Assembly (NCBI RefSeq): GCF_024700885.2
Contig: NZ_CP117016.1
Source: Escherichia coli
GTDB taxonomy: Bacteria; Pseudomonadota; Gammaproteobacteria; Enterobacterales; Enterobacteriaceae
DNA: 64,000 bases
Reading direction: 5' to 3' (one strand)
Shown: piece by piece, positions 22,367-40,131 of the stretch
How positions within the stretch are numbered: position 1 is the first letter of the stretch
How the letters are laid out: every line of letters begins with the position of its first letter
Notes under the pieces: model-generated
The model's input: the letters and a program-made list of their open reading frames with translations, nothing else
Databases searched by the model: none
Told to the model about the DNA's origin: nothing
Position numbers and translations under genes: made by a program

Positions 22367-22389
22367 TAAGACAAAGGAGCAAATTTTTT

Positions 22390-23442: not shown

Positions 23443-23487
23443 TCAACTCACGGCGGGCATCATGCCCGCCTGTAACGGAGAGAAAAA

Positions 23488-24288: not shown

Positions 24289-24389
24289 CGACTGACCCCG
24301 TCAGCGGGCGGCGTGCGCGGTGTTCCGGTTTGACTCCGTGACCGTTTACACCGCGCACCCACCGCCCGATTTTTTCAGGAGTGAACCCC

Positions 24390-24884: not shown

Positions 24885-25084
24885 TGAAAGTGAAGGCACT
24901 GGAAGGCGACACCGTGGATTCGCTCTGTTTCCGGTACTACGGCACGACGCAGGGCGTCACCGAAAAGGTGCTGGATGCCAACCCCGGACTCTGTCAGCAG
25001 GTATTTCTGGACGCCGGGCAGGAAGTGGAGATGCCGGAGCCGGAGAAGAAGAAACGAGAAATGATTCAGTTGTGGGGGGAGTAG
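24884..25084 (+). CDS. X: Tail protein X-like small protein
   Basis: 66-aa ORF MKVKALEGDTVDSLCFRYYG, ATG overlapping the L stop (TGATG). Confidence 0.65.
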   Translation: MKVKALEGDTVDSLCFRYYGTTQGVTEKVLDANPGLCQQVFLDAGQEVEMPEPEKKKREMIQLWGE

Positions 25085-25086
25085 CA

Positions 25087-25410
25087 GTGAGCACCATTCA
25101 AACAGGGATCACAGAGCAGGTTATTGCATGGCTCTTTGACCACCTGCCAACGGTGTATGCAGTAGGCGCGGCGGTCAGCATTTCCGCGCTGATGAGTCTT
25201 TATGACGGACGAACACTGGTTCAGACCGTAACGGGATCGCTGGCGTGCGGCGTTCTTGCCATGGCCGTGGCCGGGTCGTTGCGCTTCTTCGGTTTTCCTG
25301 AAGATGCCGTGACGTTTATCGGCGCATCAATCGGTTTTATGGGGGCAGAGAAAGCACGCGACAAGGTTATTGCGGCCTTTAATCGCAGGGTGAAGGAGAA
25401 GGACGAATGA
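25087..25410 (+). CDS. Putative holin
   Basis: GTG start after strong RBS ggggggag; two hydrophobic segments and a charged C-terminus; directly upstream of endolysin. Confidence 0.6.
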   Translation: MSTIQTGITEQVIAWLFDHLPTVYAVGAAVSISALMSLYDGRTLVQTVTGSLACGVLAMAVAGSLRFFGFPEDAVTFIGASIGFMGAEKARDKVIAAFNRRVKEKDE

Positions 25411-25799
25411 GCAACACATTTAAATTCAGCAGCCGGAGCGAAAAGAATTTGCAGGGCGTAAATCCTGATCTGGTGAAAGTGACCCGACGGGCACTGGAAA
25501 TTTCGGAAGTGGATTTTGGTATCACCGAAGGGTTGCGCAGCCGTTACCGCCAGAAGCAACTTGTGGCCACAGGTAAGAGCCAGACCATGAACAGCCGCCA
25601 CCTTACGGGACATGCCGTGGATGTTGTGGCTTATATCGGCAGCCAGGTGTCATGGGAATGGCCGCTGTACGAAAAAATCGCAGCCGCATTCAGACAGGCC
25701 AGCCGGGAACTGAATATTCCGGTGGAATGGGGCGGCGACTGGAAGACCCTGAAAGACGGACCGCATTTTCAGTTACCACACGGAGCCTATCCGGCATGA
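25407..25799 (+). CDS. Endolysin, peptidase M15 (L-alanyl-D-glutamate peptidase) type
   Basis: 130 aa with SRHLTGHAVD zinc-binding motif; sits where P2 has lysozyme K. Confidence 0.75.
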   Translation: MSNTFKFSSRSEKNLQGVNPDLVKVTRRALEISEVDFGITEGLRSRYRQKQLVATGKSQTMNSRHLTGHAVDVVAYIGSQVSWEWPLYEKIAAAFRQASRELNIPVEWGGDWKTLKDGPHFQLPHGAYPA

Positions 25800-26203
25800 A
25801 GCTCTGGCCAACGCTTGGCGTCGCTTTCCTTCTGATTGTCGGATGGGGAACATCCATGCGTCTGTCATGGTCGCTGGGCCGGGAGAACGCCAGAAACGAA
25901 GCGCAGGCCAGCACCCTGAAACGTACCGCCGACACCCTGAATATCATCAGCGCCGGGGTACAGGATATGCAGCAGGTGCTGGCGCAACTCCGCGTGGAAA
26001 ATCAGCAACGCAATCAGGACGGAGAGGCAAGACGTGAACAGCTACGCAACGATATTGCAAAAGATGAATGCGCCCACGCTTTGCCTGACGCTCGTTTTAC
26101 TGACAGGCTGCGCAGGCACGCAGAACGCGCTACGGCCAGCGCCGTCAGTCCGGCTTATACCGCAGACGCTGACCATACCGGTAACGCCTCCCCCCTTCCC
26201 TGA
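25796..26203 (+). CDS. i-spanin (LysB/Rz-like)
   Basis: N-terminal TM segment then coiled coil; ATGA overlap with endolysin. Confidence 0.65.
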   Translation: MKLWPTLGVAFLLIVGWGTSMRLSWSLGRENARNEAQASTLKRTADTLNIISAGVQDMQQVLAQLRVENQQRNQDGEARREQLRNDIAKDECAHALPDARFTDRLRRHAERATASAVSPAYTADADHTGNASPLP

Positions 26204-26354
26204 CACTCCCACATGGGGAAATCTCGGTATATGGGGCGACCGCCTTCTGGATGCACTGGAAACCTGTAACGCGGATAAACGGGCCATTGAATTACTGGAA
26301 CAGCGCAGGCTGCAACGACTGAACAACGAGGACAACAACCATGCTGAAAACTGA
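26064..26354 (+). CDS. o-spanin lipoprotein (LysC/Rz1-like), overlapping LysB in another frame
   Basis: MNAPTLCLTLVLLTGC lipobox and Pro-rich mature region; overlapping spanin architecture. Confidence 0.65.
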   Translation: MNAPTLCLTLVLLTGCAGTQNALRPAPSVRLIPQTLTIPVTPPPFPDTPTWGNLGIWGDRLLDALETCNADKRAIELLEQRRLQRLNNEDNNHAEN

Positions 26355-26808
26355 TTCCCTGCGTGAAGCCATGACCCGTTCATGCCGATGGTGTCAGGCC
26401 AACCCGGAAAAATTCACCATTTTCGTGGAGAGCGGCAACATTGAAACGACCGGAGAAACGCCCTCGTTTGTTTACCGCTATCAGATGGTGATGTTTGTCA
26501 TGGATTACGCCGGGGAGCTGGACGACCTCACGTTGCCGCTACTGGCGTGGTTATCCGAAAATCAGCCACAGTTGTTGCTCAATCCGGAGCGTAATCAGGA
26601 CATCAAATTTTCCGCCGTTATCAATGACGATGACAGCGCCGATCTCCTGTTTACGCTCCCCCTGCGGGAACGCGTTCGCATTACGCGCAACAGTCAGGGC
26701 ACACCGCAGGCAGAACACCTGCCGGAGCCAAAACCCCGTCTGCCCTCTTCCGAAGGCGACTGGTCACATGTATTCCAGGATGTGACGTGGGGTGAAAGCG
26801 ATGGATAA
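26341..26808 (+). CDS. R: Tail completion protein (P2 gpR-like)
   Basis: 155-aa ORF in the conserved position. Confidence 0.7.
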   Translation: MLKTDSLREAMTRSCRWCQANPEKFTIFVESGNIETTGETPSFVYRYQMVMFVMDYAGELDDLTLPLLAWLSENQPQLLLNPERNQDIKFSAVINDDDSADLLFTLPLRERVRITRNSQGTPQAEHLPEPKPRLPSSEGDWSHVFQDVTWGESDG

Positions 26809-27436
26809 GGCATTCACCCGTGTGGATGAAACCTTTGAGGCCATCCGCGACAGCCTGAATCAGCAGGCCATCAATAACATCGCCAGAAAGCTGGCACAGG
26901 ATTTACGCCGCGCCCAGCAGGCACGTATCCGGTCACAGAAAGCGCCGGACGGGACCGCGTGGACACCTCGCAGACGCCGCGTAACCCGGATACAGGAGCG
27001 CATTCGCTTTATCTGGAATAACGAAGCACGCACGCTGAAAAACTGGCATCACGACACGGGGAAATACGGGCGAACCATTACCGGGTGGGATGAGGATAAA
27101 AACAATATCCGCACGTTTTACCGGGATGACATCGACCGTTTTCTGGAAATACGCACCCGGCGCATCAACCAGGACAGCACAAAGCGCGTCCCCATGTTCG
27201 TAAAACTGCGCACCGCCCGCTACCTGAAAGCCCGTGCAGATGCTTCCGGTGTGACGGTGGGTTACAGCGGCGTGGCCGCACGTATTGCACGCGTTCATCA
27301 GTTCGGTGAGCGCGATCAGGTTGCGCCGGGCATTTTCACCGATTACTCGGTACGTGAGCTGCTGGGTATCAGCCTGGCAGATGAACGCCTGATTTATAAC
27401 ACGGTGCTGGGCCGGATTGCGGAGGCTGTACGGTGA
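26801..27436 (+). CDS. S: Tail completion/virion morphogenesis protein (P2 gpS-like)
   Basis: ATG 26801 with RBS; a GTG at 26792 is an alternative start. Confidence 0.7.
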   Translation: MDKAFTRVDETFEAIRDSLNQQAINNIARKLAQDLRRAQQARIRSQKAPDGTAWTPRRRRVTRIQERIRFIWNNEARTLKNWHHDTGKYGRTITGWDEDKNNIRTFYRDDIDRFLEIRTRRINQDSTKRVPMFVKLRTARYLKARADASGVTVGYSGVAARIARVHQFGERDQVAPGIFTDYSVRELLGISLADERLIYNTVLGRIAEAVR

Positions 27437-28014
27437 GCGCAGAACTCATGCGACTGCTGAGCAACATCATCCGCACCGGGATCATCTCTGAAGTTGATGA
27501 GGAATCCTGGTGCGTGCGCGTTCGCAGCGGCGAACTGGAAACAGGCTGGTTGCGCTGGAACACCACGCGCGCGGGAGCCTTCAATGTGTGGCTGCCGCCA
27601 TCACCAGGCGAACAGGTGGTAATTGCCTGCATTGGCGGCAACCCGGAAACCGCCATGATAATTGGCAGCCTGTGGAGTGATGCCATTCCGGCCCCCGGCA
27701 AAAGCCTGAAAGAAATCGTGGTCAGCGCGCCGGATGGCGCGGTGTTCCGCTACGACGCGGCCGCAGGCGCACTGAGCGCCAGCGGCATGAAAACAGCCAC
27801 CCTGCAGGCATCCGTCAGCGTGACACTGGATACGCCCGTCGTGGAATGCACAGACCTTCTGAGAACGGCGACGCTTGACGTCACAAAAGGGGGAAAGATG
27901 AGCGGCAATATCACGCACAGCGGCGGCAATTTCACCTCAAACGGCATCACAGTGCATACGCATAAACACGGTGGCGTTAAAGGTGGCAGCGATTCGACAG
28001 GAGGCCCGCAGTGA
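27433..28014 (+). CDS. V: Baseplate spike protein (P2 gpV-like)
   Basis: 193-aa ORF from GTG; glycine-rich C-terminus; P2 V-like. Confidence 0.8.
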   Translation: MSAELMRLLSNIIRTGIISEVDEESWCVRVRSGELETGWLRWNTTRAGAFNVWLPPSPGEQVVIACIGGNPETAMIIGSLWSDAIPAPGKSLKEIVVSAPDGAVFRYDAAAGALSASGMKTATLQASVSVTLDTPVVECTDLLRTATLDVTKGGKMSGNITHSGGNFTSNGITVHTHKHGGVKGGSDSTGGPQ

Positions 28015-28361
28015 CAACCCGCTATACAGGAATGAACCCGGACGGAACGGGAAACCTGAACGATATGGAGCACCTGAAACAGTCAGTCAAGGACATCCTG
28101 ACCACCCCGCTGGCAAGCCGGGTTATGCGACGGGAATATGGCAGCCTTGTGCCTGATTTGATAGACGAACCCATGAATAACACCACGCGTCTGCAATGCA
28201 TGAGTGCTGCCGTGATTGCGCTGACACGATGGGAACCCCGCATTGCCCTGGATGCCATCGACGTTGTCTGGAAGGCAGGAGGCCGCGCCGGGGTGACGCT
28301 GTCGGGCACTGTCATGCAGACCATGCAGAATGTTGAATTAACCATCACGCTGAGGGAGTAA
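28011..28361 (+). CDS. W: Baseplate protein (P2 gpW-like)
   Basis: 116-aa ORF from GTG with RBS aggagg. Confidence 0.75.
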   Translation: MTTRYTGMNPDGTGNLNDMEHLKQSVKDILTTPLASRVMRREYGSLVPDLIDEPMNNTTRLQCMSAAVIALTRWEPRIALDAIDVVWKAGGRAGVTLSGTVMQTMQNVELTITLRE

Positions 28362-28364
28362 ATC

Positions 28365-29261
28365 ATGCCTGCCGTTGACCTTTCACAGTTACCGGAACCC
28401 GCCATCATCGCGGAGCCTGACTTTGAGGCAATTCTGGCTGACACAAAGGCCATGATGATTGCGTCCTATCCCGCCGAACAGCGTGAAGCCGTTTCCGCCG
28501 CGCTGGAGCTGGAATCGGAACCCCTTAACGTTATCGCTCAAACCATGTCGTTTCGTGAAATGCTGTTACGCCAGCGGGTCAATGAGGGTGCACGCGCCTG
28601 CATGCTAAGCCACAGCGCCGGGACAGACCTGGACAACCTCGCGGGCAATATGAACACAAAGCGCCTGGTTATCACTCCGGCAACGGATACCACCGACGCA
28701 GTGATGGAAAGTGACACCTCGCTGAGACTACGGGCGCAACGGGCATATGACGGTCTGAGTGTTGCTGGCCCGTCAGGTGCATACGAGTATTTTGCACGCA
28801 GCGCCAGCGGTCTGGTACGCGATGCGCGGGCCATCAGCCCGTCTCCGGCCAACGTGACGGTTTCCATCCTGTCCACTGAGGGCGACGGCACAGCAACGGA
28901 GGCGTTGCTTAATACCGTTCGCGCCGTTCTGAATGCAGAGCATACCCGCCCGGTGGCCGACCGCCTGACCGTACAGAGTGCCAGAATCGTGACATGGCGG
29001 CTGAATGCAAAACTGTACTTTTACCCCGGCCCGGAATCCGAACCTATTCTGGCCGCGGCGGAATCGTCATTCAGGAAGTGGCTGGCTGAACAGGGGCTTA
29101 TCGGTCAGGACGTGGCGTTGTCCGCCATTGCTGCCGCACTTCATGTACACGGCGTGCAACGCGTGGAGATAATCGAACCCACACAGAATATGGCCATCAG
29201 CGACATACAGGCGGCGCGCTGTGAGTCATTCACCATCAGCGAAGGTGGGCGTAATGAGTAA
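28365..29261 (+). CDS. J: Baseplate wedge protein (P2 gpJ-like)
   Basis: 298-aa ORF in the conserved position. Confidence 0.8.
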   Translation: MPAVDLSQLPEPAIIAEPDFEAILADTKAMMIASYPAEQREAVSAALELESEPLNVIAQTMSFREMLLRQRVNEGARACMLSHSAGTDLDNLAGNMNTKRLVITPATDTTDAVMESDTSLRLRAQRAYDGLSVAGPSGAYEYFARSASGLVRDARAISPSPANVTVSILSTEGDGTATEALLNTVRAVLNAEHTRPVADRLTVQSARIVTWRLNAKLYFYPGPESEPILAAAESSFRKWLAEQGLIGQDVALSAIAAALHVHGVQRVEIIEPTQNMAISDIQAARCESFTISEGGRNE

Positions 29262-29784
29262 TTCACTGTTACCGCCATCAGCCAGCAGTTTCATGCGTCG
29301 TGCCGAAGCTGTCGGAACGCGCATTACAGACATCCCGGTAGACCTCAACACGCTGTGGTCGCCGGACACCTGCCCGGTGCACCTGCTGCCTTATCTCGCC
29401 TGGGCATTTTCCGTTGACCGCTGGGATCGCAACTGGCCGGAAGAGACAAAGCGACAGGTGATTCGTGATGCATGGCTGATACACCGACACAAGGGAACCA
29501 TCAGCGCACTGCGCCGGGCCATTGAGCCGCTGGGATACCTCATTCGTGTGTCTGAGTGGTGGGAGTTCGGCGGAGAACCGGGAACATTTACCGTTGAAGT
29601 GGGCACGCTGGACAGTGGCGTGACGGAGGAAATGTATCTGGAAATGGAGCGGTTGATTGCTGATGCCCGCCCGGTCAGCCGCCACATGACAGGGCTGAAT
29701 ATCATTCAGGAGATCCCGGGAGATATTTTCGCGGCGGCAGCAACTTACGACGGTGAAGTCATTACCATTTATCCGGACGATTAA
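29254..29784 (+). CDS. I: Baseplate protein (P2 gpI-like)
   Basis: ATG overlapping J stop; a GTG at 29221 is the track start. Confidence 0.75.
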
Positions 29785-29786
29785 GC

Positions 29787-31976
29787 ATGAGTACCACAAC
29801 ACGTAAATTTAAAACCGTTATCACCGATACGGGTGCCAAAAAATTAGCTCAGGCAGCCGCGCCAGATGGTAAGCTTGTCCGCCTGACTCATATGGCCGTG
29901 GGCGACGGTGGCGGTACATTGCCCACACCAGACAGTAAGCAGACCCGTCTGGTGCATGAGGTGTGGCGACATACTGTTAATCGCGTCTTCCTGGACGCAA
30001 CACATCAGAACCGCATTATTGCGGAGCTGGTTATTCCTCCTGAAACGGGCGGATTCTGGATCCGGGAAATTGGTGTATTTGATGAGCACGGCGATTTGAT
30101 CGCGGTTGGCAATACAGCCGAAAGTTACAAGCCAACCGTTGCCGAAGGGTCAGGACGTGCACAAACATTTCGCACCATTCTGACCGTCTCCAGCACTGCC
30201 ACTGTGGCGCTTACCGTGGATAACACCATGGTTATGGCCACAGTGGATTACGTGAATGACAAACTGAAAGAACATGAACAGTCACGACGTCACCCGGACG
30301 CCTCGCTGACCGCAAAAGGCTTTGTTCAACTCAGTAGCGCCACCAACAGCACGTCTGAAGCACTGGCCGCAACGCCGAAAGCGGTCAAGGCAGCCTATGA
30401 CCTTGCTAACGGGAAATATACCGCACAGGACGCCACTATAGCGCGAAAAGGCCTTGTTCAGCTCAGTAGCGCCACCAACAGCGATTCTGAAACGCTGGCG
30501 GCAACACCAAAGGCGGTAAAGGCAGCATATGACCTTGCTAACGGGAAATATACCGCACAGGACGCTACCACAGCGCGAAAAGGTCTTGTCCAGCTCAGTA
30601 GTGCGACCAACAGCACATCCGAAATGCTGGCGGCAACACCAAAGGCGGTAAAGGCAGCATATGACCTTGCTAACGGGAAATATACCGCACAGGACGCTAC
30701 GACAGCACAAAAAGGAATTGTCCAGCTCAGTAGTGCAACCAACAGCGCATCTGAAACGCTTGCTGCGACATCGAAAGCAGTGAAAGCAGCTAATGACAAT
30801 GCGAATGGTCGGGTACCTTCTGCCCGTAAGGTGAATGGTAAGGCGCTTTCAGCGGATATAACACTGACACCGAAAGATATTGGTACGCTTAACTCAACAA
30901 CTATGTCATTCAGCGGTGGTGCTGGTTGGTTCAAATTAGCAACGGTAACCATGCCGCAGGCGAGTTCTGTTGTTTCAATTACGTTGATTGGTGGGGCTGG
31001 ATATAACGTCGGTTCACCTCAACAGGCAGGTATATCTGAACTTGTTTTGCGTGCAGGTAATGGTAATCCGAAGGGGATTACTGGTGCTTTATGGCAGCGC
31101 ACATCGGCAGGGTTTACAAATTTTGCCTGGGTCAATACATCTGGTGATACTTACGATATTTACGTTGCAATCGGAAATTATGCGACTGGTGTAAATATTC
31201 AATGGGATTATACCAGTAATGCCAGCGTAACGATTCATACGTCACCTGCATATTCTGCTAATAAGCCGGAAGGGTTAACGGACGGTACAGTTTATTCACT
31301 CTATACGCCATCAGAGCAGTTTTATCCGCCTGGCGCACCAATCCCGTGGCCATCGGATACCGTTCCGTCTGGTTATGCCCTGATGCAGGGGCAGACTTTT
31401 GACAAATCTGCCTACCCGAAACTTGCAGTCGCTTATCCGTCAGGCGTGATCCCTGATATGCGTGGCTGGACGATTAAGGGCAAGCCCGCCAGTGGTCGTG
31501 CCGTATTGTCTCAGGAACAGGACGGCATTAAATCGCACACCCACAGCGCCAGCGCATCCAGTACGGATTTGGGTACGAAAACCACATCTTCGTTTGATTA
31601 CGGCACTAAATCAACGAATAACACGGGTGCACATACCCACAATGTATCTGGTACTGCAAATAGTGCTGGCGCACATACTCATACCGTTCCATTAAGGAGA
31701 CCAAACAGTGGAGGTATGAATTTCGACTGGCTTGATGGTGCATCAAGTGGCACGGTGGTGGGGAATGGAACTGTGCCTTCTTCTGGCGCACATACCCACT
31801 CAGTATCAGGTACCGCTACAAGTGCTGGGGCACATGCACACACTGTTGGTATTGGCGCTCATACGCACTCTGTTGCGATTGGTTCACATGGACACACCAT
31901 CACCGTTAACGCTGCTGGTAACGCGGAAAACACCGTTAAAAACATCGCATTTAATTATATTGTGAGGCTTGCATAA
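29787..31976 (+). CDS. H: Tail fibre protein (P2 gpH-like) with internal tandem repeats and His-rich C-terminal domain
   Basis: 729 aa; four 44-aa repeats ([15 protein letters not shown]...[15 protein letters not shown]) and C-terminal GAHTH(S/T)V repeats. Confidence 0.85.
30315..30800 (+). repeat. Four tandem 132-bp repeats within tail fibre gene H
   Basis: Units begin at 30315, 30447, 30579 and 30711; the fourth diverges in its second half. Confidence 0.8.
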
Positions 31977-32593
31977 TGGCATTCAGAATGAGTGAACAAT
32001 CACGTACTGTAAAAATTTATAACCTGCTGGCCGGAACTAATGAGTTTATTGGTGAAGGTGACGCATATATTCCACCTCATACAGGGCTGCCAGCTAATTC
32101 TACAGATATCGCCCCACCGGAAATTCCTGCTGGCTTTGTGGCAGTTTTTAACAGTGAAAATGAATCGTGGAATATTGTTGAAGACCATCGTGGTAAAACG
32201 GTCTATGACGTGGCATCGGGGGACGCGTTGTTTATTTCTGAGCCCGGACCGCTACCAGAGAATGTCACCTGGTTGTCGCCAGCAGGGGAGTATCAGAAGT
32301 GGGACGGCGTATCCTGGGTGAAGGATGAGGAAGCAGAAAAACTGTTTCGGATACGGGAAGCGGAAGAGAAAAAGGCAAGGTTGATCCAGGAAGCAACAGA
32401 TAACATCGCAATTCTGCAGGATGCAGTTAATCTTGAAATAGCAACAAACGAGGAAAATTCACAACTGGATTCCTGGAGAAAATACAGAGTATTAGTGAGT
32501 AGAATTGACACCAGTACAGCTCCGGATATCGTATGGCCAGAGCTGATGAATCAGGGTTATGTGCGGGAGGACGAGCAGATAACTTCAGACTGA
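31976..32593 (+). CDS. G: Tail fibre assembly chaperone (P2 gpG-like)
   Basis: 205-aa ORF starting on the H stop (TAATG). Confidence 0.8.
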
Positions 32594-33120
32594 AATTTAG
32601 TGATGAATGTTGAATCATCAGGAATATCATGCAATACCAATGCATGAGCACCTATTGTGACATTGTTTCCTATACGCACTTTGCCACCAAGAATGGTGGC
32701 ATTACAACCAATGGTCACATTATGTCCTATAACAATATCCATATCATTAAAATCACCACGCAGCCCAATAGTTACCCCTGGTTTTATTGAACAATTTTCA
32801 CCGATTGTTACTTTGTGACCGATAACAACACTGTTGAGATAAGAAATATCAAAGCCTTTCCCTATATTTACAGTTAAAGGGACTGTTACATTATATTTAT
32901 CAAGAATGAAACGTTCTATTTTCCCCGCAATCTTCCGACAGTATCCGCCTTTATCAAAAAGGTACTTGGCTATGCGCCACCAAAATAAATAACGAACTCT
33001 TCTATGTTTTATTGCGCGAACAATTGCCTTTCGCCAGGAGAAAGGACGCTCGCTACCGATTACTTCATAGTGAATACAATCTTTAAGTTCATTAATATTC
33101 ATATCTCTATTATTCAGCAT
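32557..33120 (-). CDS. Low-GC cargo: hexapeptide-repeat (left-handed beta-helix) acetyltransferase
   Basis: 187 aa with repeated [LIV]GxxxxIG hexapeptides; about 30% GC; between G and the tail module. Confidence 0.7.
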
Positions 33121-33290: not shown

Positions 33291-33785
33291 TCAGAACAGC
33301 CCTTTAACTGAACTGGCCGCGCTGTTAAGGGATGATGTCACTTTATCTTTGAAGCCGGACAGCATATCGCTGAACGATGAGGATTGCAGGCGCTCCCGCA
33401 AATCCTCATCACAGCGTTCAAGGGTCAGTGAAAATTCTATCTTTTTCGCCTTACCGTAGCGATCAAACTCGGAACGGGTCGTATTCGTTTCGGTCAGGAC
33501 ATACATGCCGTAAATCTGCCCGACGCCATCAATCAGAGGCCAGGGGCGTCCTGTATACGCCTGCGTGGTCAGCAGCGACAGCGACACTTCGCCACCTGTA
33601 ATTTCAGGATAAAGCACACCAGAAAGAACGATGCGATCATCACCTGCACCGATATACTGCCAGCTTGCTGAACGGTTAACGCGTTCATTTTTCACATGCC
33701 GCCAGCTTTTGTTTTGCTGTAACTGCTGATGCGGCAGCGTGCGCAGCTCAAAAACAAACATGCCGTAGATCATCATCATGGCCAT
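33291..33785 (-). CDS. U: Tail protein (P2 gpU-like)
   Basis: 164-aa ORF downstream of tape measure on the same strand. Confidence 0.7.
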   Translation of the reverse strand: MAMMMIYGMFVFELRTLPHQQLQQNKSWRHVKNERVNRSASWQYIGAGDDRIVLSGVLYPEITGGEVSLSLLTTQAYTGRPWPLIDGVGQIYGMYVLTETNTTRSEFDRYGKAKKIEFSLTLERCDEDLRERLQSSSFSDMLSGFKDKVTSSLNSAASSVKGLF

Positions 33786-33791
33786 GACTCC

Positions 33792-36608
33792 TCAATCTTT
33801 ATCGTAAAAACTGCCACGCCCGGCACGGGCGCGCCGTTCCATTTCTGCCCTGACCATTTCACCGACCAGTTTCGCCAGTTCGCGGGGATTCTGCGTAACA
33901 ACGTTATGCAGATGAACATGAATTTCACCACCAAATCCGGAGGCAACAGGCTCCCGGTTACGGAAAGTTACAGGAACTGATGCCACTGGAGATCGTATGG
34001 CCTCCGCCACCGGGCGGGAGCTGGCCGCAACAACAGGGACCAGCGCCGGAGGCAGCGGAGCCGGGACCACGGGTGTGATATTAATTGCGGGGGCAGGCTT
34101 ACTGACCTGCGCAATCTTCCGCTCCTGCCACTCCCCACGAACAGCAAGTGCGCGGGGCAGGTTCTTAAAGACAATATCGCCGGGGCCAATGCGTTTTTTC
34201 GTCTCATCAACCAGCTTACCTGTGTTATCAGCAATTTTGCTGAGTCTGCGTAGCGTCCCGGTATTGCTGTCTGTGAGCGGTTTGTTGTCTTTGGGTTTAT
34301 CACCTCCGGTGCCATTGCCATTTTCCACAGGCTTCGGCGGATTGATTTTCGCCAGGTCACCCTGAAGCAAGGCAACCTTGTCCTGAAGAATGGCCGCACG
34401 CTGTGCGTCTTCGATTTTCTTGCGCGCCCTTTCCGCTTCATCCGGAAGGACGCCAAGTTTTTCAAGTATCCACGCCAGCGTATCCAGTAGCATTTTTGCA
34501 GGTGTCAGAACAAGCTGTAACGCACCGCCAAGAACGTTACCGAATATCTCGCCAGCACTGGTACATTTATCCAGCGTTTCCTTGCTGGACTCCATCGGTG
34601 ACAGCAGCGATTTAAACCAGTTAAACACCTGGCTGATCCCGCTTCCGATTGCGTCAAAAACAGGACCAAACCGTTCAAAGGTTTCGCGCAACGGGGTCAG
34701 CCTTTCCATAATCCCGCTGAACACCCCGGCAAAAAATGCCCTGATGGGATCCCAGTATTTCCAGATAAGAACGGCAGCTCCGGCAAGCGCAGCCACGATA
34801 AGACCAACCGGACTGAACAGCGCCCCGATAGCGCCTCCCAGTAAAGAAACGGAACCCGTCACCATTCCCCACAGCGCAGGCAACACCCTGACGACATTCA
34901 TTGACCGGGTAAGAATGTCGAAACCAAGACGCAGGGTGGCCAGCTTCCCGTAAAGCACCCCAATAACCAGCGACAACGAGCCAATCGTTGCAGTCATTGC
35001 CAGCAACGCACCGCCTGCTATCAGTAGTTGGCGCGTCAGTACCGGATGGGCCTGCGCCAGCGAGGTGATTTTTTCAAGCACCCGCGTGAGCCACTGCGTG
35101 ACAGAACGCAGCGGACCGTCAACCAGATCACTGATGCGAATACGAAGACCTTCCCATGCGCTGTCGAGATTTTTCAGGTCCCCATCAAGATTATCGGCCA
35201 TTACTTTTGCGACGCGATCGGCCTCTCCCCTTGCCCCCTGCAATTCTCTGGTCAGTTTTTGCAGCTCTCCTGAACCAGCCGCCGCAACAAGCGTCTGCAA
35301 ACCAACGAACGCCTCTTCTCCGGCGATGTCCTTGAAGAAGGAAACCTGGTCCACCTGTCCGTATTTTTGTGTCGCCTTATAGAGATCAAGCAGCACATCC
35401 TCCATCGGGCGCATTTTGCCTCTGGCGTCAGCAACTGACACCCCCAGCTCTTTCAGTGCATCAGCCGCAGCTTTTGGCGGTGATGCAAGGCGGGACAGAC
35501 TTGCGCGCATGGCCGTACCAGCATCGCTTCCGCGAAGACCATTATTGGCAAGCATCCCGGCCATGGCCGCCGCTTCTTCAAGACTGATACCAAGTTTTGC
35601 GGCAACCGGACCGGTATACTTCATGGTTTCGCCCAGCGCGCGTAAATCAGTATTGGTCCGGGTGAATGTTGCTGTCAGTGTATCGCCAACCCGGTCCATT
35701 TGATCGGCTGTCAGGTTGAACTGTGTGAGGATATTGGAGCCTATATCAGCCGTCTCGCCGAGTTCGACGCCACCTGCCAGCGCCATATTAAGAACACCGG
35801 GCAATGCGGCCTGAATGGCCTGCGGAGTAAAACCAGCCATTGCCAGAAAGCTCTGCCCACTGGCGGCATCACTCGCAGTAAACTGTGTTTCAGAGCCAAG
35901 TTTTAACGCCTGCTCACGCAGCGCCTTAAACTGCGGGCTGTTTTTGTCGATTCGCGTCAGTGCCTGAACGCGGGACATCTCTTTGCCGAACCCGATCGCA
36001 GGCTGCAAAAAACGCCCGGCAGCATAGCCGCCCGCCGCTGCCGCACCAATTGCCAGCGCACCACCTGTTTTCAGTTTTCCCGCTGTTTCCTGCGCGCGCG
36101 AATACCGCTCACGCGCCCGCGTTACACGCGCAAGCGCCTGCCGTTCGCGTTCAAGCTGGTTGTTGTACTGTTCGGTGCGTCTGATGGCCTGCTGGATGGT
36201 GTTATCGCTGCCTGTCAGGGAAATGCCGTGGCGTTTCAGCTCTCCGCCAAGTTCCCGCATTTTCTGAATTTCCCGTGTGCGCGATTCATTCAGGCGTTCA
36301 AGCCGGGTGCTTAACTGCTGCATCAGCTTTTGTTGTTTTTCGCTGAGCACTGTACCCGTGCGTTGTAACTGATTAAGGGCGTTAAGCTGGCGTCGTGCTT
36401 TCACGATGCCCGCATCCGCTTTACTGACAGCGTCACGGGCGCGCTCAAATGAACGCGCCTGACGCTCGAGATTTTTGATCGCCCCCTGCGTTCGCTGGAT
36501 GGAGTCACCAAACTGCCCCATCAGGCGGCGGGCGTTTTCGGCAGGCCGGGTCAGCCTGTCAACGGCGCTGAAAGCGACCCGGATATCAAGAGTCTTCATT
36601 GTCTGCAT
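33792..36608 (-). CDS. T: Tail tape measure protein (P2 gpT-like)
   Basis: About 940 aa, long coiled-coil N-terminal half, Gly/Ala-rich membrane-like segments; start could be 36608, 36599 or GTG 36635. Confidence 0.8.
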   Translation of the reverse strand: MQTMKTLDIRVAFSAVDRLTRPAENARRLMGQFGDSIQRTQGAIKNLERQARSFERARDAVSKADAGIVKARRQLNALNQLQRTGTVLSEKQQKLMQQLSTRLERLNESRTREIQKMRELGGELKRHGISLTGSDNTIQQAIRRTEQYNNQLERERQALARVTRARERYSRAQETAGKLKTGGALAIGAAAAGGYAAGRFLQPAIGFGKEMSRVQALTRIDKNSPQFKALREQALKLGSETQFTASDAASGQSFLAMAGFTPQAIQAALPGVLNMALAGGVELGETADIGSNILTQFNLTADQMDRVGDTLTATFTRTNTDLRALGETMKYTGPVAAKLGISLEEAAAMAGMLANNGLRGSDAGTAMRASLSRLASPPKAAADALKELGVSVADARGKMRPMEDVLLDLYKATQKYGQVDQVSFFKDIAGEEAFVGLQTLVAAAGSGELQKLTRELQGARGEADRVAKVMADNLDGDLKNLDSAWEGLRIRISDLVDGPLRSVTQWLTRVLEKITSLAQAHPVLTRQLLIAGGALLAMTATIGSLSLVIGVLYGKLATLRLGFDILTRSMNVVRVLPALWGMVTGSVSLLGGAIGALFSPVGLIVAALAGAAVLIWKYWDPIRAFFAGVFSGIMERLTPLRETFERFGPVFDAIGSGISQVFNWFKSLLSPMESSKETLDKCTSAGEIFGNVLGGALQLVLTPAKMLLDTLAWILEKLGVLPDEAERARKKIEDAQRAAILQDKVALLQGDLAKINPPKPVENGNGTGGDKPKDNKPLTDSNTGTLRRLSKIADNTGKLVDETKKRIGPGDIVFKNLPRALAVRGEWQERKIAQVSKPAPAINITPVVPAPLPPALVPVVAASSRPVAEAIRSPVASVPVTFRNREPVASGFGGEIHVHLHNVVTQNPRELAKLVGEMVRAEMERRARAGRGSFYDKD

Positions 36609-37124
36609 TCCCGCTGCGAAGTGCCGCCCGCTCACGCCAGCTAACCACTTCGCCGGGCGTCATCATGAAGATTTCGGCGGGCGACCAGTTAAAAATGGCG
36701 GCGATATCTGCCACCAGATCTTCGATGTGCTCAAAGCACACCAGCGTGATTACGCTGCCGTCTCCTGCACGCTCTTCGCGCCAGAGTCTGGCTCGCTCAT
36801 AAAATTTACAGCCACAGCGCACAACTGAATAAAATCGCGTGACGACATTTTTTTAATCATCACTTCATCCAGTCGTGGCGAGGTCACGCGAGGCAACAGC
36901 GTGAACATGGTATCCGCTTTCAGATTCAGCACATCAGACAGCGACAGACCACGCAGGGATCCAGCCTGTTCAATAGCCCCGGTGATCTCCACATACGTGA
37001 TTTTTTCGCCACCACGCTCAATTGGTCGGGTCAGTTTTACGCCACGTTCGACAGCCATATCCTCACCTGCCGTCACATCATCCACCACGGTGTTATTCCG
37101 GGTTTCAGTATCGATGTCTTTCAT
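36586..37124 (-). CDS. Tail assembly chaperone E+E' fusion by programmed -1 ribosomal frameshift
   Basis: Slippery heptamer A_AAT_TTT on the minus strand (36807-36801) in E frame; -1 frame continues ...KFYERARLW... to a stop at 36586. Confidence 0.6.
36750..37124 (-). CDS. E: Tail assembly chaperone (P2 gpE-like)
   Basis: 124-aa ORF between tail tube and tape measure. Confidence 0.7.
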   Translation of the reverse strand: MKDIDTETRNNTVVDDVTAGEDMAVERGVKLTRPIERGGEKITYVEITGAIEQAGSLRGLSLSDVLNLKADTMFTLLPRVTSPRLDEVMIKKMSSRDFIQLCAVAVNFMSEPDSGAKSVQETAA

Positions 37125-37179
37125 CAGTTTTCTCCTTTTCAGTCAGAGGCGACGCACTGCGTCGCCTGCATATTACTTA

Positions 37180-37692
37180 TCAGCCAAGCCCGAGCGCGGA
37201 ACGGATACGGTCAGGCAAAATGTCCTTGCCGTCCTTCCGGTAGATGTGGTTCAACAGGTCGATTTCCCACAGCGGGCGATCGTTAACGCTCAGCTTGTAG
37301 TAGGTGTTTTTGACAGCGTAAGTGTGTGATGTGGCTTCGCCCTGTTTGGCTTCCCCCATATCAATTTCCGTCACACGTCCGCGCATCTCGATTTCATACA
37401 GATCGCTTTCTGCATCGGTGTAGTATTCACCCGCAAAACGCAGCAGCGTGCCGTCAATCGTGCCGCCATATTTAAGGAACAGCGCACGAACAGCTCCCCC
37501 CATAACAAAACTCGCATCAAGCGCGGAGTCGTCCAGACCGAGATCAATACTTACCGCCCCCATCATGCCACCACCACGATAGCTGTCGGTTTTGCGCGTC
37601 AGTTTGGGCGGCGTGACGGATGTCACTTTACCCACTTCGTTTTCACCATCCACAAACAACGTAAAAAAGCGAAGATGTTTTGGTACAGCCAT
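37180..37692 (-). CDS. FII: Tail tube protein (P2 gpFII-like)
   Basis: 170-aa ORF directly downstream of sheath gene. Confidence 0.8.
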   Translation of the reverse strand: MAVPKHLRFFTLFVDGENEVGKVTSVTPPKLTRKTDSYRGGGMMGAVSIDLGLDDSALDASFVMGGAVRALFLKYGGTIDGTLLRFAGEYYTDAESDLYEIEMRGRVTEIDMGEAKQGEATSHTYAVKNTYYKLSVNDRPLWEIDLLNHIYRKDGKDILPDRIRSALGLG

Positions 37693-38876
37693 CAGGCACC
37701 TCCCAGCACCGCAAATGCGGGACCAAAGAATTCATCAGTAAACGTCTGGTAAAGCTCCATGTCTTCCAGTGGCGGAACGGGCGTATATTTGTAGCGAATA
37801 CGCACACGTCCCTGACGTAAATTCGTGGTGCCGTTATCCACCACGTCATACCAGCACTCCGCGCCAATCAGTTTCCCGGCAGTAACCAGCGAATCCAGTT
37901 TTGCCCTGATGGCACTGATAACATCCTTCACGTTCGCAGGCGTCAGTGGACTGTCGATAGTTTCAAACTGCGCTTCCGCAATTGAATCAGCCAGCACCTG
38001 TGCGGTTCGGGTATACACCTCAAAGATGTAGGCGTTCGTTTCCGGTGTGCGGTTGCCCCAGAAGCGGAACCCATTGCGACGAATAATGGTCGTGATTTCT
38101 TTGTTGTTGAGGCTGTTGGCATCGCTGTCTTCGGCCTGCAACGACCAGAACACATGCCTCGACATCCCCAGCACATTTTTAACCGGAACGTTGGACAGTG
38201 ATTTGTGCCACCCCTGCTCATGGTCAATGTACGCACGAAGGCCGCACGCATAGGCAGGCGCGGGGAACGTTTCGTTTTTGCCACTTTTCGGGTTGTAGGC
38301 GATGAAGTCCGGCCATAAGAGCATCACCTCACGTTCGTTGAATTTCTGGCGGTAGGTAATCGCCTCAGCCATCGTGTTACAGCCGTGACATGAGGCATAC
38401 ACAAACGCGCGCAGTTTACCTGCAATCACGCACAGGGATTTTGTTACAGCCTCCGTGTCCAGCTCCGGCGCGGCCAGAATACGCGGACGGTATCCGATGC
38501 TTTCATCCTGCTCTGCAACAAGCAGCGCATACATCCCCGTATAGCTGCCGTCATCCTCAGAACCACCGATAACCAGTTGATCCTGCGTCTTTCCGTCTTC
38601 TTCTTTGTGTTCAGCCACGCGAACGACAATCACCTTTGTGCTCACCTGGTCTGCGATGGCCTTAAGCGCACGATAAAGCGTCCCCGTTGTCCCGCATTTT
38701 CCCAGCACGTCATTGACGCGGGTCAGCAGTGTGGGCTTGTTCAGCGGGAACAGCTTCGCGTCCGCATCATCCGCCGTTGCCACGATACCGATAACGCTGG
38801 AATCAACATCGTTAATCGCTGTTACCAGGTCGGTATTTTCCGTAACACGGGCACCATGAAAACGAGTTTCACTCAT
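37692..38876 (-). CDS. FI: Contractile tail sheath protein (P2 gpFI-like)
   Basis: 394 aa; LIRR(N/D)GFRFWGNRT and YTPVPPLE blocks match remembered P2 FI. Confidence 0.85.
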   Translation of the reverse strand: MSETRFHGARVTENTDLVTAINDVDSSVIGIVATADDADAKLFPLNKPTLLTRVNDVLGKCGTTGTLYRALKAIADQVSTKVIVVRVAEHKEEDGKTQDQLVIGGSEDDGSYTGMYALLVAEQDESIGYRPRILAAPELDTEAVTKSLCVIAGKLRAFVYASCHGCNTMAEAITYRQKFNEREVMLLWPDFIAYNPKSGKNETFPAPAYACGLRAYIDHEQGWHKSLSNVPVKNVLGMSRHVFWSLQAEDSDANSLNNKEITTIIRRNGFRFWGNRTPETNAYIFEVYTRTAQVLADSIAEAQFETIDSPLTPANVKDVISAIRAKLDSLVTAGKLIGAECWYDVVDNGTTNLRQGRVRIRYKYTPVPPLEDMELYQTFTDEFFGPAFAVLGGA

Positions 38877-39033
38877 AGCTTCAGCCCCTTGTATCCGTTA
38901 AATGATTCGGCAACAATCATCACCCACCACGCGCGTAATCTCACCCCTGCGCCGTTCTCCCACCACGGCGACAACAAAAAGCAGTAACCCCCTCCGCACG
39001 CACATGCGACCATGCCGCACAGGGAGGGAACAG

Positions 39034-40131
39034 ATGACCGACACCACCATGCAATTGCTCAGTCAGGGCACAGACCCCGTGAAAATGCCGGATTTTGATA
39101 TTCTCGCGGAGGGTAAAACGCTGTCAGGCGTGACAGAGCGCCTGATGAGCCTGTCACTGACCGACAACCGGGGATTTGAGGCGGACCAGCTCACCATCAC
39201 GCTGGATGATGCAGATGGTCAGTTGCAGCTACCGCCACGGGGCGCGCGCCTGACGGTTCTCATTGGCTGGAAAGGAGAACCGCTGACAGAAAAAGGCACT
39301 TACATTGTTGATGAAATCGCTCACGAAGGACCGCCGGACAGGCTGACTGTTTCAGCCAGAAGCGCAGATTTTCGGGATGAATTTAACGTTAAACGTGAGG
39401 TGTCCTGGCATGATGTGACCGTTGAGCGTGTGGTATCCGCCATCGCTCATCGGTACGGTCTGAAACCGCAAATCAGCGAAATGCTGATGGATATCGAAAT
39501 CGACCACGCCGACCAGACCGAAGAAAGCGACATGTCCTTTCTTACGCGCATGGCGGAAATGCTGGGCGCAATCACCACGGTAAAAAGCGGTAATCTGTTA
39601 TTCATTATGCCAGGCGGTGGCGTGAACGCACAGGGCCAGCCGTTGCCATCGTTCGCCATCACGCGCAGCAGTGGCGATCGCCATCAGTTCCGCATTGCTG
39701 ACCGCGAAGCGTATACGGGGGTACGCGCTTACTGGCTTGATCTTAATTACGGGAAAAAGAAAAAAGTCAGCGTGAAACGCCGTAAACCGAAAATGGAGAA
39801 AAGCAGTAGCCGTGAAGGCGACTATATGGAAGGTGCGGAAGGCAACGTGTTTGTGTTACGCAAGACTTATCAGAACGAACAGGCAGCAAGACGCGCTGCG
39901 GCGGCAAAGTGGCAGCAGCTACAACGCGGAGCCGCATCATTCTCCATCACACTGGCACGTGGACGCGCAGAACTCTACCCCGAAATGCATGGCACGGTAA
40001 CAGGATTTAAAAGCGAGATTGATAATCAGGACTGGATTATTGCAAAAGCCGAGCACACCATTGATAACAGCGGTTATACCACGCAGCTTGAACTTGAAAC
40101 AAAAATCCCTGAATGGATTGCGCAGACCTAA
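39034..40131 (+). CDS. D: Late control/tail protein D (P2 gpD-like)
   Basis: Start at MTDTTMQ with RBS agggaggg; the track ORF begins far upstream at a non-ATG. Confidence 0.75.
   Translation: MTDTTMQLLSQGTDPVKMPDFDILAEGKTLSGVTERLMSLSLTDNRGFEADQLTITLDDADGQLQLPPRGARLTVLIGWKGEPLTEKGTYIVDEIAHEGPPDRLTVSARSADFRDEFNVKREVSWHDVTVERVVSAIAHRYGLKPQISEMLMDIEIDHADQTEESDMSFLTRMAEMLGAITTVKSGNLLFIMPGGGVNAQGQPLPSFAITRSSGDRHQFRIADREAYTGVRAYWLDLNYGKKKKVSVKRRKPKMEKSSSREGDYMEGAEGNVFVLRKTYQNEQAARRAAAAKWQQLQRGAASFSITLARGRAELYPEMHGTVTGFKSEIDNQDWIIAKAEHTIDNSGYTTQLELETKIPEWIAQT

What the first reader, a model, noticed from the sequence alone, without database searches (positions are those of the whole stretch)
36586..37124. 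Programmed -1 frameshift site for the tail chaperone E/E' pair
The E ORF contains the heptamer A_AAT_TTT (minus strand, 36807-36801) in the X_XXY_YYZ arrangement, 17 codons before its stop. Shifting -1 there continues into the overlapping ORF (…KFYERARLW…) ending at 36586, just upstream of tape measure T. This matches the conserved chaperone frameshift seen upstream of tape-measure genes in tailed phages.
Basis: partly seen in the sequence, partly recalled or inferred. Interest (0 to 1): 0.4.

Follow-up and report, generated by a model that had tools for sequence, protein, structure and literature searches.

The report
Tail-chaperone frameshift site, P2-like prophage
This is the well-known programmed -1 ribosomal frameshift that P2-like phages use to make a longer version (E+E') of a tail-assembly protein; here an E. 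coli prophage uses the slippery sequence A_AAT_TTT, one codon upstream of phage P2's T_TTT_TTG, which this lineage has lost.

Summary
AAATTTT lies at 36807-36801 (minus strand) in the A_AAT_TTT phase of gene E (37124-36750), 17 codons before the E stop. It is the only canonical X_XXY_YYZ heptamer in the 35-codon overlap with the -1 ORF that ends at 36586.

The window holds a Xuanwuvirus (P88/PhiSM-like, Peduoviridae) prophage. Its gene order on the minus strand is sheath, tube, E, E', tape measure, U.

The predicted 179-aa fusion aligns collinearly with the experimentally proven P2 gpE+E' (E = 1e-28). The frame junction falls in the same alignment column.

Across 18 diverged lineages, protein conservation switches from frame 0 to frame -1 exactly at this Phe codon. 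All 61 distinct related loci carry a canonical heptamer at this position.

The family's usual T_TTT_TTG is destroyed here by a T-to-A change at 36800. Only A_AAT_TTT, one codon 5', remains. In published E. coli assays that heptamer is strongly stimulatable (0.07% alone, 11% with a pseudoknot).

PhiSM, with an identical site, is a viable phage. Public records wrongly call E' as a separate GTG-initiated gene.

A lineage-specific 3' hairpin is a candidate stimulator but is not statistically supported.

This is an ordinary member of a known recoding class with a small slip-site swap. Nothing was tested experimentally.

The parts
37132..37137 (-). Shine-Dalgarno sequence (AAGGAG) of gene E
   Evidence: Duplex with the anti-SD is -8.7 kcal/mol, 6 nt before the ATG. 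The operon background mean is -3.1.
36750..37124 (-). Gene E (124 aa), the tail assembly chaperone and frame-0 product
   Evidence: ORF. It shares 35% identity with P2 gpE, E = 3e-15. It matches PHROG 103 'tail protein' at 1e-36. The Pfam Phage_TAC_7 hit is weak, 20.5 bits against a cut-off of 25.
36801..36807 (-). Slippery heptamer A_AAT_TTT, the proposed site of tandem -1 slippage (tRNA-Asn AAU to AAA, tRNA-Phe UUU to UUU)
   Evidence: It is the only canonical XXXYYYZ in the overlap. It is invariant in all 79 E'-selected IMG/VR loci in which the site could be read. It sits at the column homologous to the P2 site. Conservation switches frame here. In E. coli, AAAUUUU shifts 0.07% alone, 0.36% with IS911 stimulators and 11.4% with the IS3 pseudoknot.
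36798..36804 (-). Relic of the family's P2-type heptamer: T_TTT_ATG here, T_TTT_TTG in P2, P88 and most relatives. The inactivating T-to-A change is at 36800.
36586..36801 (-). E' coding part in the -1 frame (71 codons plus stop). Base 36801 is read twice. The full E+E' is join(37124..36801, 36801..36586), 179 aa.
   Evidence: Translation. The fusion is collinear with P2 gpE+E', E = 1e-28. The -1-frame peptide Y/F-E-R-x-G-L-W-x-x-E-R-x-G-D-G is conserved immediately after the site.
36607..36714 (-). Conserved E' core (Pfam PF06528, Phage_P2_GpE)
   Evidence: 46.7 bits against a cut-off of 23, E = 2e-12.
36757..36792 (-). Candidate 3' stimulatory hairpin (13 bp, irregular, about -16.7 kcal/mol) starting 8 nt after the heptamer. 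It is lineage-specific and unproven.
   Evidence: Folds. It is fixed in the ATG-type lineage and absent (0.0 kcal/mol) in the P88 type and in L026. It ranks in the top 4% of operon windows but only the top 15% of GC-matched windows.
36739..36741 (-). GTG used by RefSeq/PGAP as the start of a separate 51-aa 'GpE family phage tail protein'. Judged an annotation artefact.
   Evidence: Annotation. No SD is present: -3.2 kcal/mol, equal to background. The conserved -1-frame peptide extends 16-17 codons upstream of it.
36848..36854 (-). A7 run (T_AAA_AAA phase) at the 5' edge of the open -1 frame. Considered as an alternative slip site and rejected.
   Evidence: In P88-type relatives a -1-frame TGA lies between this run and the heptamer.
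33792..36599 (-). Tape measure gene T. Its ATG at 36599 overlaps the end of E' by 14 nt.
   Evidence: Pfam PhageMin_Tail, 1e-56. PGAP start.
37180..37692 (-). Tail tube gene (FII), immediately upstream of E
   Evidence: Pfam Phage_tube, 5e-46.

Best explanation
Ribosomes translating gene E of this Xuanwuvirus (P88/PhiSM-like) prophage mostly terminate at 36750 and give the 124-aa chaperone E.

A minority slip back one nucleotide on A_AAU_UUU (36807-36801). At that moment tRNA-Asn is in the P site and tRNA-Phe in the A site. The two tRNAs re-pair to AAA_UUU and translation continues in the -1 frame to 36586. The product is a 179-aa E+E' protein reading ...AVAVNF|YERARLW....

By analogy with P2 gpE/gpE+E' and lambda gpG/gpGT, the two proteins act at a fixed ratio as tail assembly chaperones around the tape-measure protein.

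What is shown: the gene arrangement, the homology, the site position and the frame switch in conservation.

What is inferred: the actual slippage, its efficiency, tandem rather than single-tRNA slippage, and any role of the 3' hairpin.
For: - Site and frames verified.
- E' carries the Phage_P2_GpE domain.
- E and the fusion are homologous to and collinear with P2 gpE and gpE+E'. The junction falls in the same column. The P2 record annotates the -1 frameshift there.
- P2 uses TTTTTTG to make the 91-aa E and the 142-aa E+E' (PMC3091744).
- All 61 distinct overlaps found with an E'-anchored, heptamer-blind scan have a canonical heptamer at the homologous position, 15-18 codons before the E stop.
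- Lineages lacking T_TTT_TTN always keep the overlapping upstream heptamer: A_AAT_TTT in 7 distinct overlaps and C_CCT_TTC in 15.
- In 18 lineage representatives, frame 0 is better conserved upstream of the Phe codon in 150 of 153 pairs. Frame -1 is better conserved downstream in 139 of 153 pairs.
- In L252 a -1-frame TAA sits immediately before the Phe codon and no start codon follows it.
- There is no SD in front of any -1-frame start codon.
- AAAUUUU is strongly stimulatable in E. coli and strongly avoided in this phase in E. coli genes, z = -9.1.
- PhiSM has an identical E/E' overlap and is a fully functional plaque-forming phage (PMC6456863).
- The same 65-nt site region is present in 598 of 5426 complete E. 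coli genomes.
Against: - There is no experimental evidence for this phage.
- Without a stimulator, AAAUUUU shifted only 0.07% in the E. coli reporter, which is near background.
- No upstream SD-like stimulator was found.
- The only candidate 3' structure is not significant against GC-matched windows. It is absent from one ATG-type contig, L026.
- A canonical heptamer would occur by chance in about 13% of overlaps of this length.
- Invariance of the heptamer within the window's own lineage carries little weight, because those sequences are more than 87% identical.
Confidence: 0.85

Rival explanations
1. The shift happens one step later by single-tRNA slippage. Peptidyl-tRNA-Phe in the P site slips on U_UUU (36804-36801) while the A-site AUG is still empty, and TAT is then read. 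This would be what remains of the ancestral T_TTT_TTG site. The protein product is identical to that of tandem slippage.
For: T_TTT_ATG occupies exactly the position of the family's T_TTT_TTG. The product ...NF|YER... is the same, so sequence alone cannot separate the two routes.
Against: Tetramer motifs alone are barely shifty in E. coli: U_UUA gives 0.15-0.2% even with a pseudoknot. AAAUUUU with a pseudoknot reaches 11.4%, against 0.8% for U_UUU alone. In both lineages that lost T_TTT_TTN, the wobble base of the preceding Val codon is kept so that the upstream heptamer stays canonical: GTA-AAT and GTC-CCT. That retention is unexplained if only U_UUU mattered.
Confidence: 0.08
2. E' is an independent small gene. 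A 51-aa protein initiates at GTG 36741, as annotated in RefSeq/PGAP and in several phage records, and there is no frameshift.
For: Public annotation. The GTG is conserved in P88.
Against: - No SD precedes the GTG: -3.2 kcal/mol, equal to background.
- The -1-frame peptide is conserved for 16-17 codons upstream of that GTG, more strongly than frame 0.
- WIN-versus-P88 substitutions upstream of the GTG fall mainly at -1-frame wobble positions, 8 of 15.
- Annotated E' starts differ between relatives.
- In P2 the reading frame is annotated as a -1 extension of E (PMC3091744).
Confidence: 0.04
3. Slippage occurs at the A7 run (36854-36848). It would be either ribosomal, on T_AAA_AAA, or transcriptional, by insertion of one A. 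The fusion would then switch frame 16 codons earlier.
For: In the window lineage the -1 frame is open from exactly this run. AAA codons and A-runs are slip-prone, and AAAAAAA is strongly avoided in E. coli genes.
Against: - In the P88-type sister lineage, and in 10 of 18 lineages, a -1-frame stop lies between this region and the Phe codon.
- The T_AAA_AAA phase is not canonical.
- This route would replace the conserved C-terminal segment of E (DFIQLCAVAVNF, aligned to P2 DLVALAGKVVGF) with unrelated sequence.
- Frame 0 is the conserved frame there in 150 of 153 pairs.
Confidence: 0.02
4. The site is dead. Loss of T_TTT_TTG inactivated E+E' synthesis and this prophage lineage makes no functional E'.
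For: The family's usual heptamer is destroyed. Unstimulated AAAUUUU is weak.
Against: - PhiSM, with the identical overlap, forms plaques at about 10^9 PFU/ml.
- Both ORFs are intact and the site is fixed in 72 of 72 window-type viral contigs read, and in 598 complete E. coli genomes.
- An independent lineage (Reipivirus-like, C_CCT_TTC) made the same kind of switch.
Confidence: 0.02

Closest known systems
Bacteriophage P2 gpE / gpE+E' programmed -1 frameshift (Christie et al. 2002, J Bacteriol 184:6522; annotated in AF063097)
   Same: The gene position is the same: between tube FII and tape measure T. Both halves are homologous (35% and 33% identity, E = 3e-15 and 1e-28). The -1 direction is the same. 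The junction falls in the same alignment column. E' overlaps the start of T. E' has no start or SD of its own.
   Different: - Heptamer: A_AAT_TTT instead of T_TTT_TTG, displaced one codon 5'. The P2-type heptamer is mutated to T_TTT_ATG.
- Distance to the E stop: 17 codons instead of 7.
- E has a 22-residue N-terminal extension, and the linker before the E' core is 12 residues longer.
- The sheath-to-U block is inverted relative to gene D.
- The 10% efficiency and essentiality reported for P2 are recalled from that paper's abstract, which could not be opened here.
Phage P88 / Gemsvirus 500465-2 / Chuche (closest diverged relatives, about 86% nt identity)
   Same: Same E/E' architecture, same A_AAT_TTT at the same position, and the same 17-codon distance to the E stop.
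   Different: These phages have AAATTTTTTG, two overlapping canonical heptamers (A_AAT_TTT plus T_TTT_TTG). They lack the 3' hairpin: 0.0 against -16.7 kcal/mol. Their -1 frame is closed by a TGA upstream, which gives a shorter overlap.
Lambda gpG/gpGT and the general tail-assembly-chaperone frameshift of tailed phages (Levin 1993; Xu, Hendrix & Duda 2004)
   Same: Two overlapping ORFs lie between the major tail and tape-measure genes. The longer product is made by a low-frequency -1 shift near the end of the first ORF. The chaperone role is described in PMC5009743.
   Different: No sequence similarity is expected; per the P2 literature this is recalled, not tested here. This is a contractile-tail phage. 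The slippery sequence differs.
Reipivirus-like Klebsiella prophages (Kp4846-1 type)
   Same: This is an independent lineage that also lost T_TTT_TTG (it now reads TTC TTG). It also retains only the upstream overlapping heptamer, C_CCT_TTC.
   Different: The heptamer is different. CCCUUUC is the best U-type motif in E. coli, 23% with a pseudoknot. There is no comparable hairpin at 5-9 nt.

Membership tests
P2-type gpE / gpE+E' tail chaperone pair made by programmed -1 frameshift | Two overlapping ORFs located between the tail tube (FII) and tape-measure (T) genes | tested here: met
   Tube 37692-37180, E 37124-36750, -1 ORF to 36586, T from 36599.
P2-type gpE / gpE+E' tail chaperone pair made by programmed -1 frameshift | Upstream ORF homologous to P2 gpE | tested here: met
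   BLASTP 35% identity over 89 aa, E = 3e-15. PHROG 103 at 1e-36. Pfam Phage_TAC_7 scores only 20.5 bits, below the cut-off of 25.
P2-type gpE / gpE+E' tail chaperone pair made by programmed -1 frameshift | Downstream ORF in the -1 frame carrying the Phage_P2_GpE (E') domain | tested here: met
   PF06528 at 46.7 bits against a cut-off of 23. The frame relation was verified.
P2-type gpE / gpE+E' tail chaperone pair made by programmed -1 frameshift | E' has no translation initiation signal of its own, and the conserved -1-frame peptide begins at the slip site | tested here: met
   No SD before GTG 36741 or GTG 36822. The frame switch in conservation falls at the Phe codon in 18 lineages. L252 has a stop immediately before the Phe codon and no start codon after it.
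P2-type gpE / gpE+E' tail chaperone pair made by programmed -1 frameshift | Canonical slippery heptamer in the overlap at the position homologous to the P2 site | tested here: met
   A_AAT_TTT at 36807-36801 overlaps the column of P2's T_TTT_TTG by 4 nt. 61 of 61 distinct relatives have a canonical heptamer there.
P2-type gpE / gpE+E' tail chaperone pair made by programmed -1 frameshift | The specific P2 heptamer T_TTT_TTG | tested here: not met
   The window has T_TTT_ATG, with an A at 36800. This feature is typical of the family but not universal: 22 of 61 distinct relatives also lack T_TTT_TTN.
P2-type gpE / gpE+E' tail chaperone pair made by programmed -1 frameshift | The fusion protein is actually produced and is required for tail assembly | not testable with these tools
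   Indirect evidence only: PhiSM, with the identical site, is viable.
Stimulated bacterial -1 PRF signals (dnaX / IS911 / IS3 type) | SD-like sequence 6-17 nt upstream of the heptamer | tested here: not met
   The best anti-SD duplex in the 25 nt upstream is -1.5 kcal/mol.
Stimulated bacterial -1 PRF signals (dnaX / IS911 / IS3 type) | Stable hairpin or pseudoknot 5-9 nt downstream, conserved among relatives | tested here: inconclusive
   The hairpin at 36792-36757 scores -16.7 kcal/mol with an 8-nt spacer. The 101-nt fold has z = -2.7 and the 61-nt fold z = -1.3. It is absent in the sister lineage and in L026. 15% of GC-matched windows fold as well. No family-wide structure exists. No Rfam hit falls at the site.

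The most novel reading that the evidence does not exclude
The two overlapping heptamers in A_AAU_UUU_UUG are interchangeable slip sites that turn over during evolution. L252 keeps only the 3' one, the window lineage and the Reipivirus-like lineage keep only the 5' one, and P88 keeps both. The window lineage made itself dependent on A_AAU_UUU, which is near background when unstimulated in E. coli, and co-acquired a 3' hairpin (36792-36757) that restores a workable E:E+E' ratio. This would be a natural example of compensatory co-evolution between a slip site and its stimulator.
Probability: 0.2. Interest if true: 0.4.

Novelty: new member of a known kind. Interest (0 to 1): 0.22.

Why it matters
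The biology is textbook. Tailed phages set the ratio of two tail-assembly chaperones through a programmed -1 frameshift, and P2's E/E+E' is a proven case. What this analysis adds is practical and modest.

1. **Annotation.** In about 1,400 complete E. coli genomes (598 window-type, 820 P88-type), E' of this prophage family appears to be mis-annotated as a free-standing GTG-initiated 51-aa gene. The true 179-aa product is missing. This rests on the annotated records inspected, not on every genome.

2. **Slip-site variation.** The slip site is not fixed in the family. Two overlapping heptamers substitute for one another, so frameshift predictors that look only for the P2 TTTTTTG would miss this lineage.

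3. **Experimental system.** The ATG-type and TTG-type sister lineages, together with the viable phage PhiSM, offer a convenient natural system. It could be used to measure how heptamer identity and a 3' hairpin set frameshift efficiency in E. coli.

Tried and rejected
- Rfam scan of the whole window: the only hit is the Phe leader at 46275-46399, with nothing at the site.
- NCBIfam scan of the fusion: no family.
- PDB sequence search of the fusion: no meaningful hit.
- Family-wide conserved 3' structure: none. Most relatives have z-scores near 0, in line with the reported absence of a structure in P2 (PMC3091744).
- Upstream SD-like stimulator: none.
- A7 run as slip site: rejected.
- Independent E' initiation: rejected.
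- My first IMG/VR scan was anchored on GTAAATTTT. It therefore could not test conservation of the heptamer. I replaced it with two E'-anchored scans.
- The original P2 paper (PMC135442) is not held. P2 facts are taken from PMC3091744, from the AF063097 annotation, and, where marked, from memory.
- Literature searches found no earlier description of A_AAT_TTT as the slip site in Xuanwuvirus, P88 or PhiSM. Absence from this library is not proof of absence.
- No structure prediction was run. It would not bear on whether the shift occurs.
Full report
**1. Observation**

On the minus strand the sequence reads ...GCT GTA AAT TTT ATG AGC.... AAATTTT occupies 36807-36801.

Gene E runs from ATG 37124 to TAA 36752-36750 (124 aa). 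In that frame the heptamer is phased A_AAT_TTT, and the TTT codon is followed by 16 sense codons and then the stop.

The -1 frame is open from a TAA at 36855-36853 to a TGA at 36588-36586 and reads ...KFYERARLW....

Of the 35 in-frame heptamer positions in that overlap, only this one is a canonical X_XXY_YYZ. Slipping there gives a 179-aa protein: 108 residues of E plus 71 of E'.

The one exception is that E' overlaps the tape-measure start (ATG 36599) by 14 nt rather than ending upstream of it.

A canonical in-frame heptamer is expected by chance in about 13.6% of overlaps of this length, based on 78 canonical sites among 20,117 positions in this window's long ORFs. The motif alone proves nothing.

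**2. What the locus is**

Pfam identifies the following genes, all on the minus strand:
- tail sheath (38876-37692)
- tube FII (37692-37180)
- a tape-measure protein (from 36599)
- gpU (33785-33291)

The -1 ORF carries the Phage_P2_GpE domain, at 46.7 bits against a cut-off of 23.

The DNA is 98.5% identical to Xuanwuvirus P884B11 and 98.4% identical to Citrobacter phage PhiSM. It is about 86% identical to phage P88 and 100% identical to a prophage in E. coli MLI114.

E is 35% identical to P2 gpE (E = 3e-15). The predicted fusion aligns end to end with P2 gpE+E' (E = 1e-28). The frame junction...VNF|Y... against ...VGFL|V..., falls in the same column.

The P2 record annotates a -1 frameshift at that spot. 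P2 is reported to shift on TTTTTTG to give the 91-aa E and the 142-aa E+E' (PMC3091744).

**3. The slip site is not the family's usual one**

I surveyed 18 annotated Peduoviridae. T_TTT_TTG, or T_TTT_TTT/C, sits at the homologous position in 14 of them.

The closest diverged relatives (P88, 500465-2, Chuche) read GTA AAT TTT TTG. That sequence contains two overlapping canonical heptamers.

The window and PhiSM read GTA AAT TTT ATG. A T-to-A change at 36800 destroys the P2-type heptamer and leaves only A_AAT_TTT one codon 5'.

I then ran a heptamer-blind scan of IMG/VR anchored on the E' core. It returned 61 distinct overlap regions, and every one had a canonical heptamer 15-18 codons before the E stop:

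| Site type | Distinct overlaps |
|---|---|
| TTTTTTG only | 22 |
| CCCTTTC only | 15 |
| CCCTTTT + TTTTTTG | 8 |
| AAATTTT only | 7 |
| AAATTTT + TTTTTTG | 6 |
| TTTTTTC | 2 |
| TTTTTTA | 1 |

At least two independent lineages have therefore lost T_TTT_TTN: the window type and the Reipivirus-like C_CCT_TTC type. Both keep the wobble base of the preceding Val codon that makes the upstream heptamer canonical.

Conversely, L252 reads GTT AAT TTT TTG and retains only the downstream heptamer.

In an E'-anchored sample of close relatives, the site could be read in 79 of 80 loci. It was AAATTTTATG in all 72 window-type loci and AAATTTTTTG in all 7 P88-type loci.

**4. Evidence that the -1 frame is really entered here**

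In 18 lineage representatives, the 17 codons before the conserved Phe codon are better conserved in frame 0. Mean identity is 0.48 against 0.29, and frame 0 wins in 150 of 153 pairs.

The 16-17 codons after it are better conserved in frame -1. Mean identity is 0.51 against 0.37, frame -1 wins in 139 of 153 pairs, and the motif is G-x-W-x-x-E-R-x-G-D-G.

Ten of the 18 lineages have -1-frame stops within the 17 upstream codons. In L252 a TAA immediately precedes the Phe codon and no start codon follows it. There the conserved peptide can only be reached by a frameshift.

In the WIN-versus-P88 comparison, substitutions fall at frame-0 wobble positions before the site (32 of 57). After the site they fall at -1-frame wobble positions: 8 of 15 upstream of the PGAP GTG and 6 of 9 in E' proper. 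The counts after the site are small.

The GTG at 36741, which RefSeq uses to start a separate 51-aa 'GpE family phage tail protein', has no Shine-Dalgarno sequence. Its anti-SD duplex is -3.2 kcal/mol, equal to the background mean of -3.1. For comparison, E scores -8.7 and the tube gene -11.5.

**5. Is A_AAU_UUU a plausible slip site in E. coli?**

These are the measured -1 frameshift efficiencies from Sharma et al. 2014, Table S3:

| Heptamer | No stimulator | IS911 stimulators | IS3 pseudoknot | z-score in E. coli genes (this phase) |
|---|---|---|---|---|
| AAAUUUU | 0.070% | 0.355% | 11.4% | -9.1 |
| UUUUUUG (P2 type) | 0.118% | 0.247% | 0.765% | 0.14 |

The same paper singles out R_RR.U_UU.Y motifs as frameshift-prone. 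So the remaining heptamer is at least as capable as the lost one, but it is strongly context-dependent.

**6. Stimulators**

No SD-like element precedes the site. No Rfam family matches at the site. No 3' structure is conserved across the family, as reported for P2.

The window lineage does have a 13-bp irregular hairpin at 36792-36757. It scores about -16.7 kcal/mol and starts 8 nt after the heptamer.

- The hairpin is fixed in ATG-type sequences and retained in the 88%-identical L035 (-15.7 kcal/mol).
- It is absent (0.0 kcal/mol) in the TTG-type sister lineage.
- It is also absent in L026, which combines ATG with the P88-like background.

Statistically it is unconvincing. The 101-nt fold has z = -2.7 and the 61-nt fold z = -1.3. 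It ranks in the top 4% of all operon windows but only the top 15% of GC-matched windows. I report it as a candidate only.

**7. Viability**

PhiSM has an E/E' overlap identical to the window's. It was isolated as a 'fully functional temperate phage' that plaques on E. coli K-12 at about 10^9 PFU/ml (PMC6456863). I assume that record OR565851 is that phage. Loss of the P2-type heptamer is therefore compatible with tail assembly.

The 65-nt region around the site occurs in 598 of 5426 complete E. coli genomes, with 525 records at 99% identity or more. The P88-type version occurs in 820.

**8. Rivals**

- **Single-tRNA slippage on U_UUU_A.** This would give the same protein and cannot be excluded from sequence. 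It is disfavoured by the tetramer data and by retention of the XXX base.
- **Independent initiation of E'.** Disfavoured, as set out in section 4.
- **The A7 run at 36854-36848.** It is out of canonical phase, is separated from the site by a -1 stop in the sister lineage, and would overwrite a conserved part of E.
- **A dead site.** Contradicted by PhiSM and by the fixation of intact ORFs.

**9. Comparison and novelty**

This is a member of the P2 gpE/gpE+E' class, which itself belongs to the lambda G/GT-type tail-chaperone frameshift class. All sequence-testable defining features are met except the specific TTTTTTG heptamer, and that heptamer is not universal in the family.

I found no earlier description of the A_AAT_TTT site in Xuanwuvirus. 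None of the annotated records I inspected for this prophage group (E. coli MLI114, P88, PhiSM, Chuche) marks a slippage.

The finding is ordinary biology with a small evolutionary twist: slip-site turnover between two overlapping heptamers. It also implies a widespread annotation error. Nothing here was tested experimentally.

Noticed in passing
window 33291-38876 (minus strand) versus 38902-40131 and 21497-32593 (plus strand): The sheath-tube-E-E'-T-U block is inverted relative to the head, baseplate and fibre genes and to gene D (Phage_GPD, plus strand). D diverges from the sheath gene. In P2 the order FI-FII-E-T-U-D is collinear. The 409-aa D ORF probably starts later than 38902, since its N-terminal 45 residues look non-coding. 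RefSeq calls only a 262-aa 'VgrG/Pvc8 family' protein there, plus a pseudogene fragment.
   Followed up: partly
window 32557-33120 (minus strand): A 187-aa hexapeptide-repeat acyltransferase gene (Pfam Hexapep, 1e-12) sits between the tail-fibre assembly gene (31976-32593, which it overlaps by 37 nt) and gpU. It is a likely cargo or lysogenic-conversion gene, for example an O-antigen acetyltransferase.
   Followed up: no
window 15704-16663 (plus strand), next to gpA 12760-15627: A full-length ParM/StbA actin-like plasmid-segregation protein (Pfam StbA_N, 2e-82) is encoded just after the P2-type replication gene A of an integrated prophage.
   Followed up: no
window 46275-46399 (minus strand); 42825-46222: A Phe leader (Rfam RF01859, 74 bits) lies upstream of two long ORFs at 45227-46222 and 42825-45212. 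From their position I take these to be pheS and pheT, though no protein scan was run on them. That would mark the chromosomal flank and place the prophage's right end between about 40.2 and 42.8 kb. The 386-aa ORF at 40262-41422 has no Pfam hit.
   Followed up: no
L026 (= L234; IMGVR_UViG_2534681835_000034): This single contig carries the ATG-type site (AAATTTTATG) in an otherwise P88-like E/E' background that lacks the 3' hairpin. It is either an independent T-to-A change or a recombinant, and it is the one counter-example to coupling between site type and hairpin.
   Followed up: partly
L003 (OR565851.1, Citrobacter phage Shae_phiSM) 1-1059: The 394-aa orthologue of the tail sheath gene is annotated there as 'late control gene D protein', and E' is not annotated at all. 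The PhiSM paper describes long non-contractile tails by electron microscopy, although the genome encodes sheath and tube.
   Followed up: no
L016 (Mannheimia phage vB_MhM_2256AP1) 688-697: This distant Peduoviridae member has replaced the T-rich site altogether with G_GGA_AAG / A_AAG_GGC, 5-6 codons before the E stop. Its record notes an AGGGAAAG slippery sequence.
   Followed up: no
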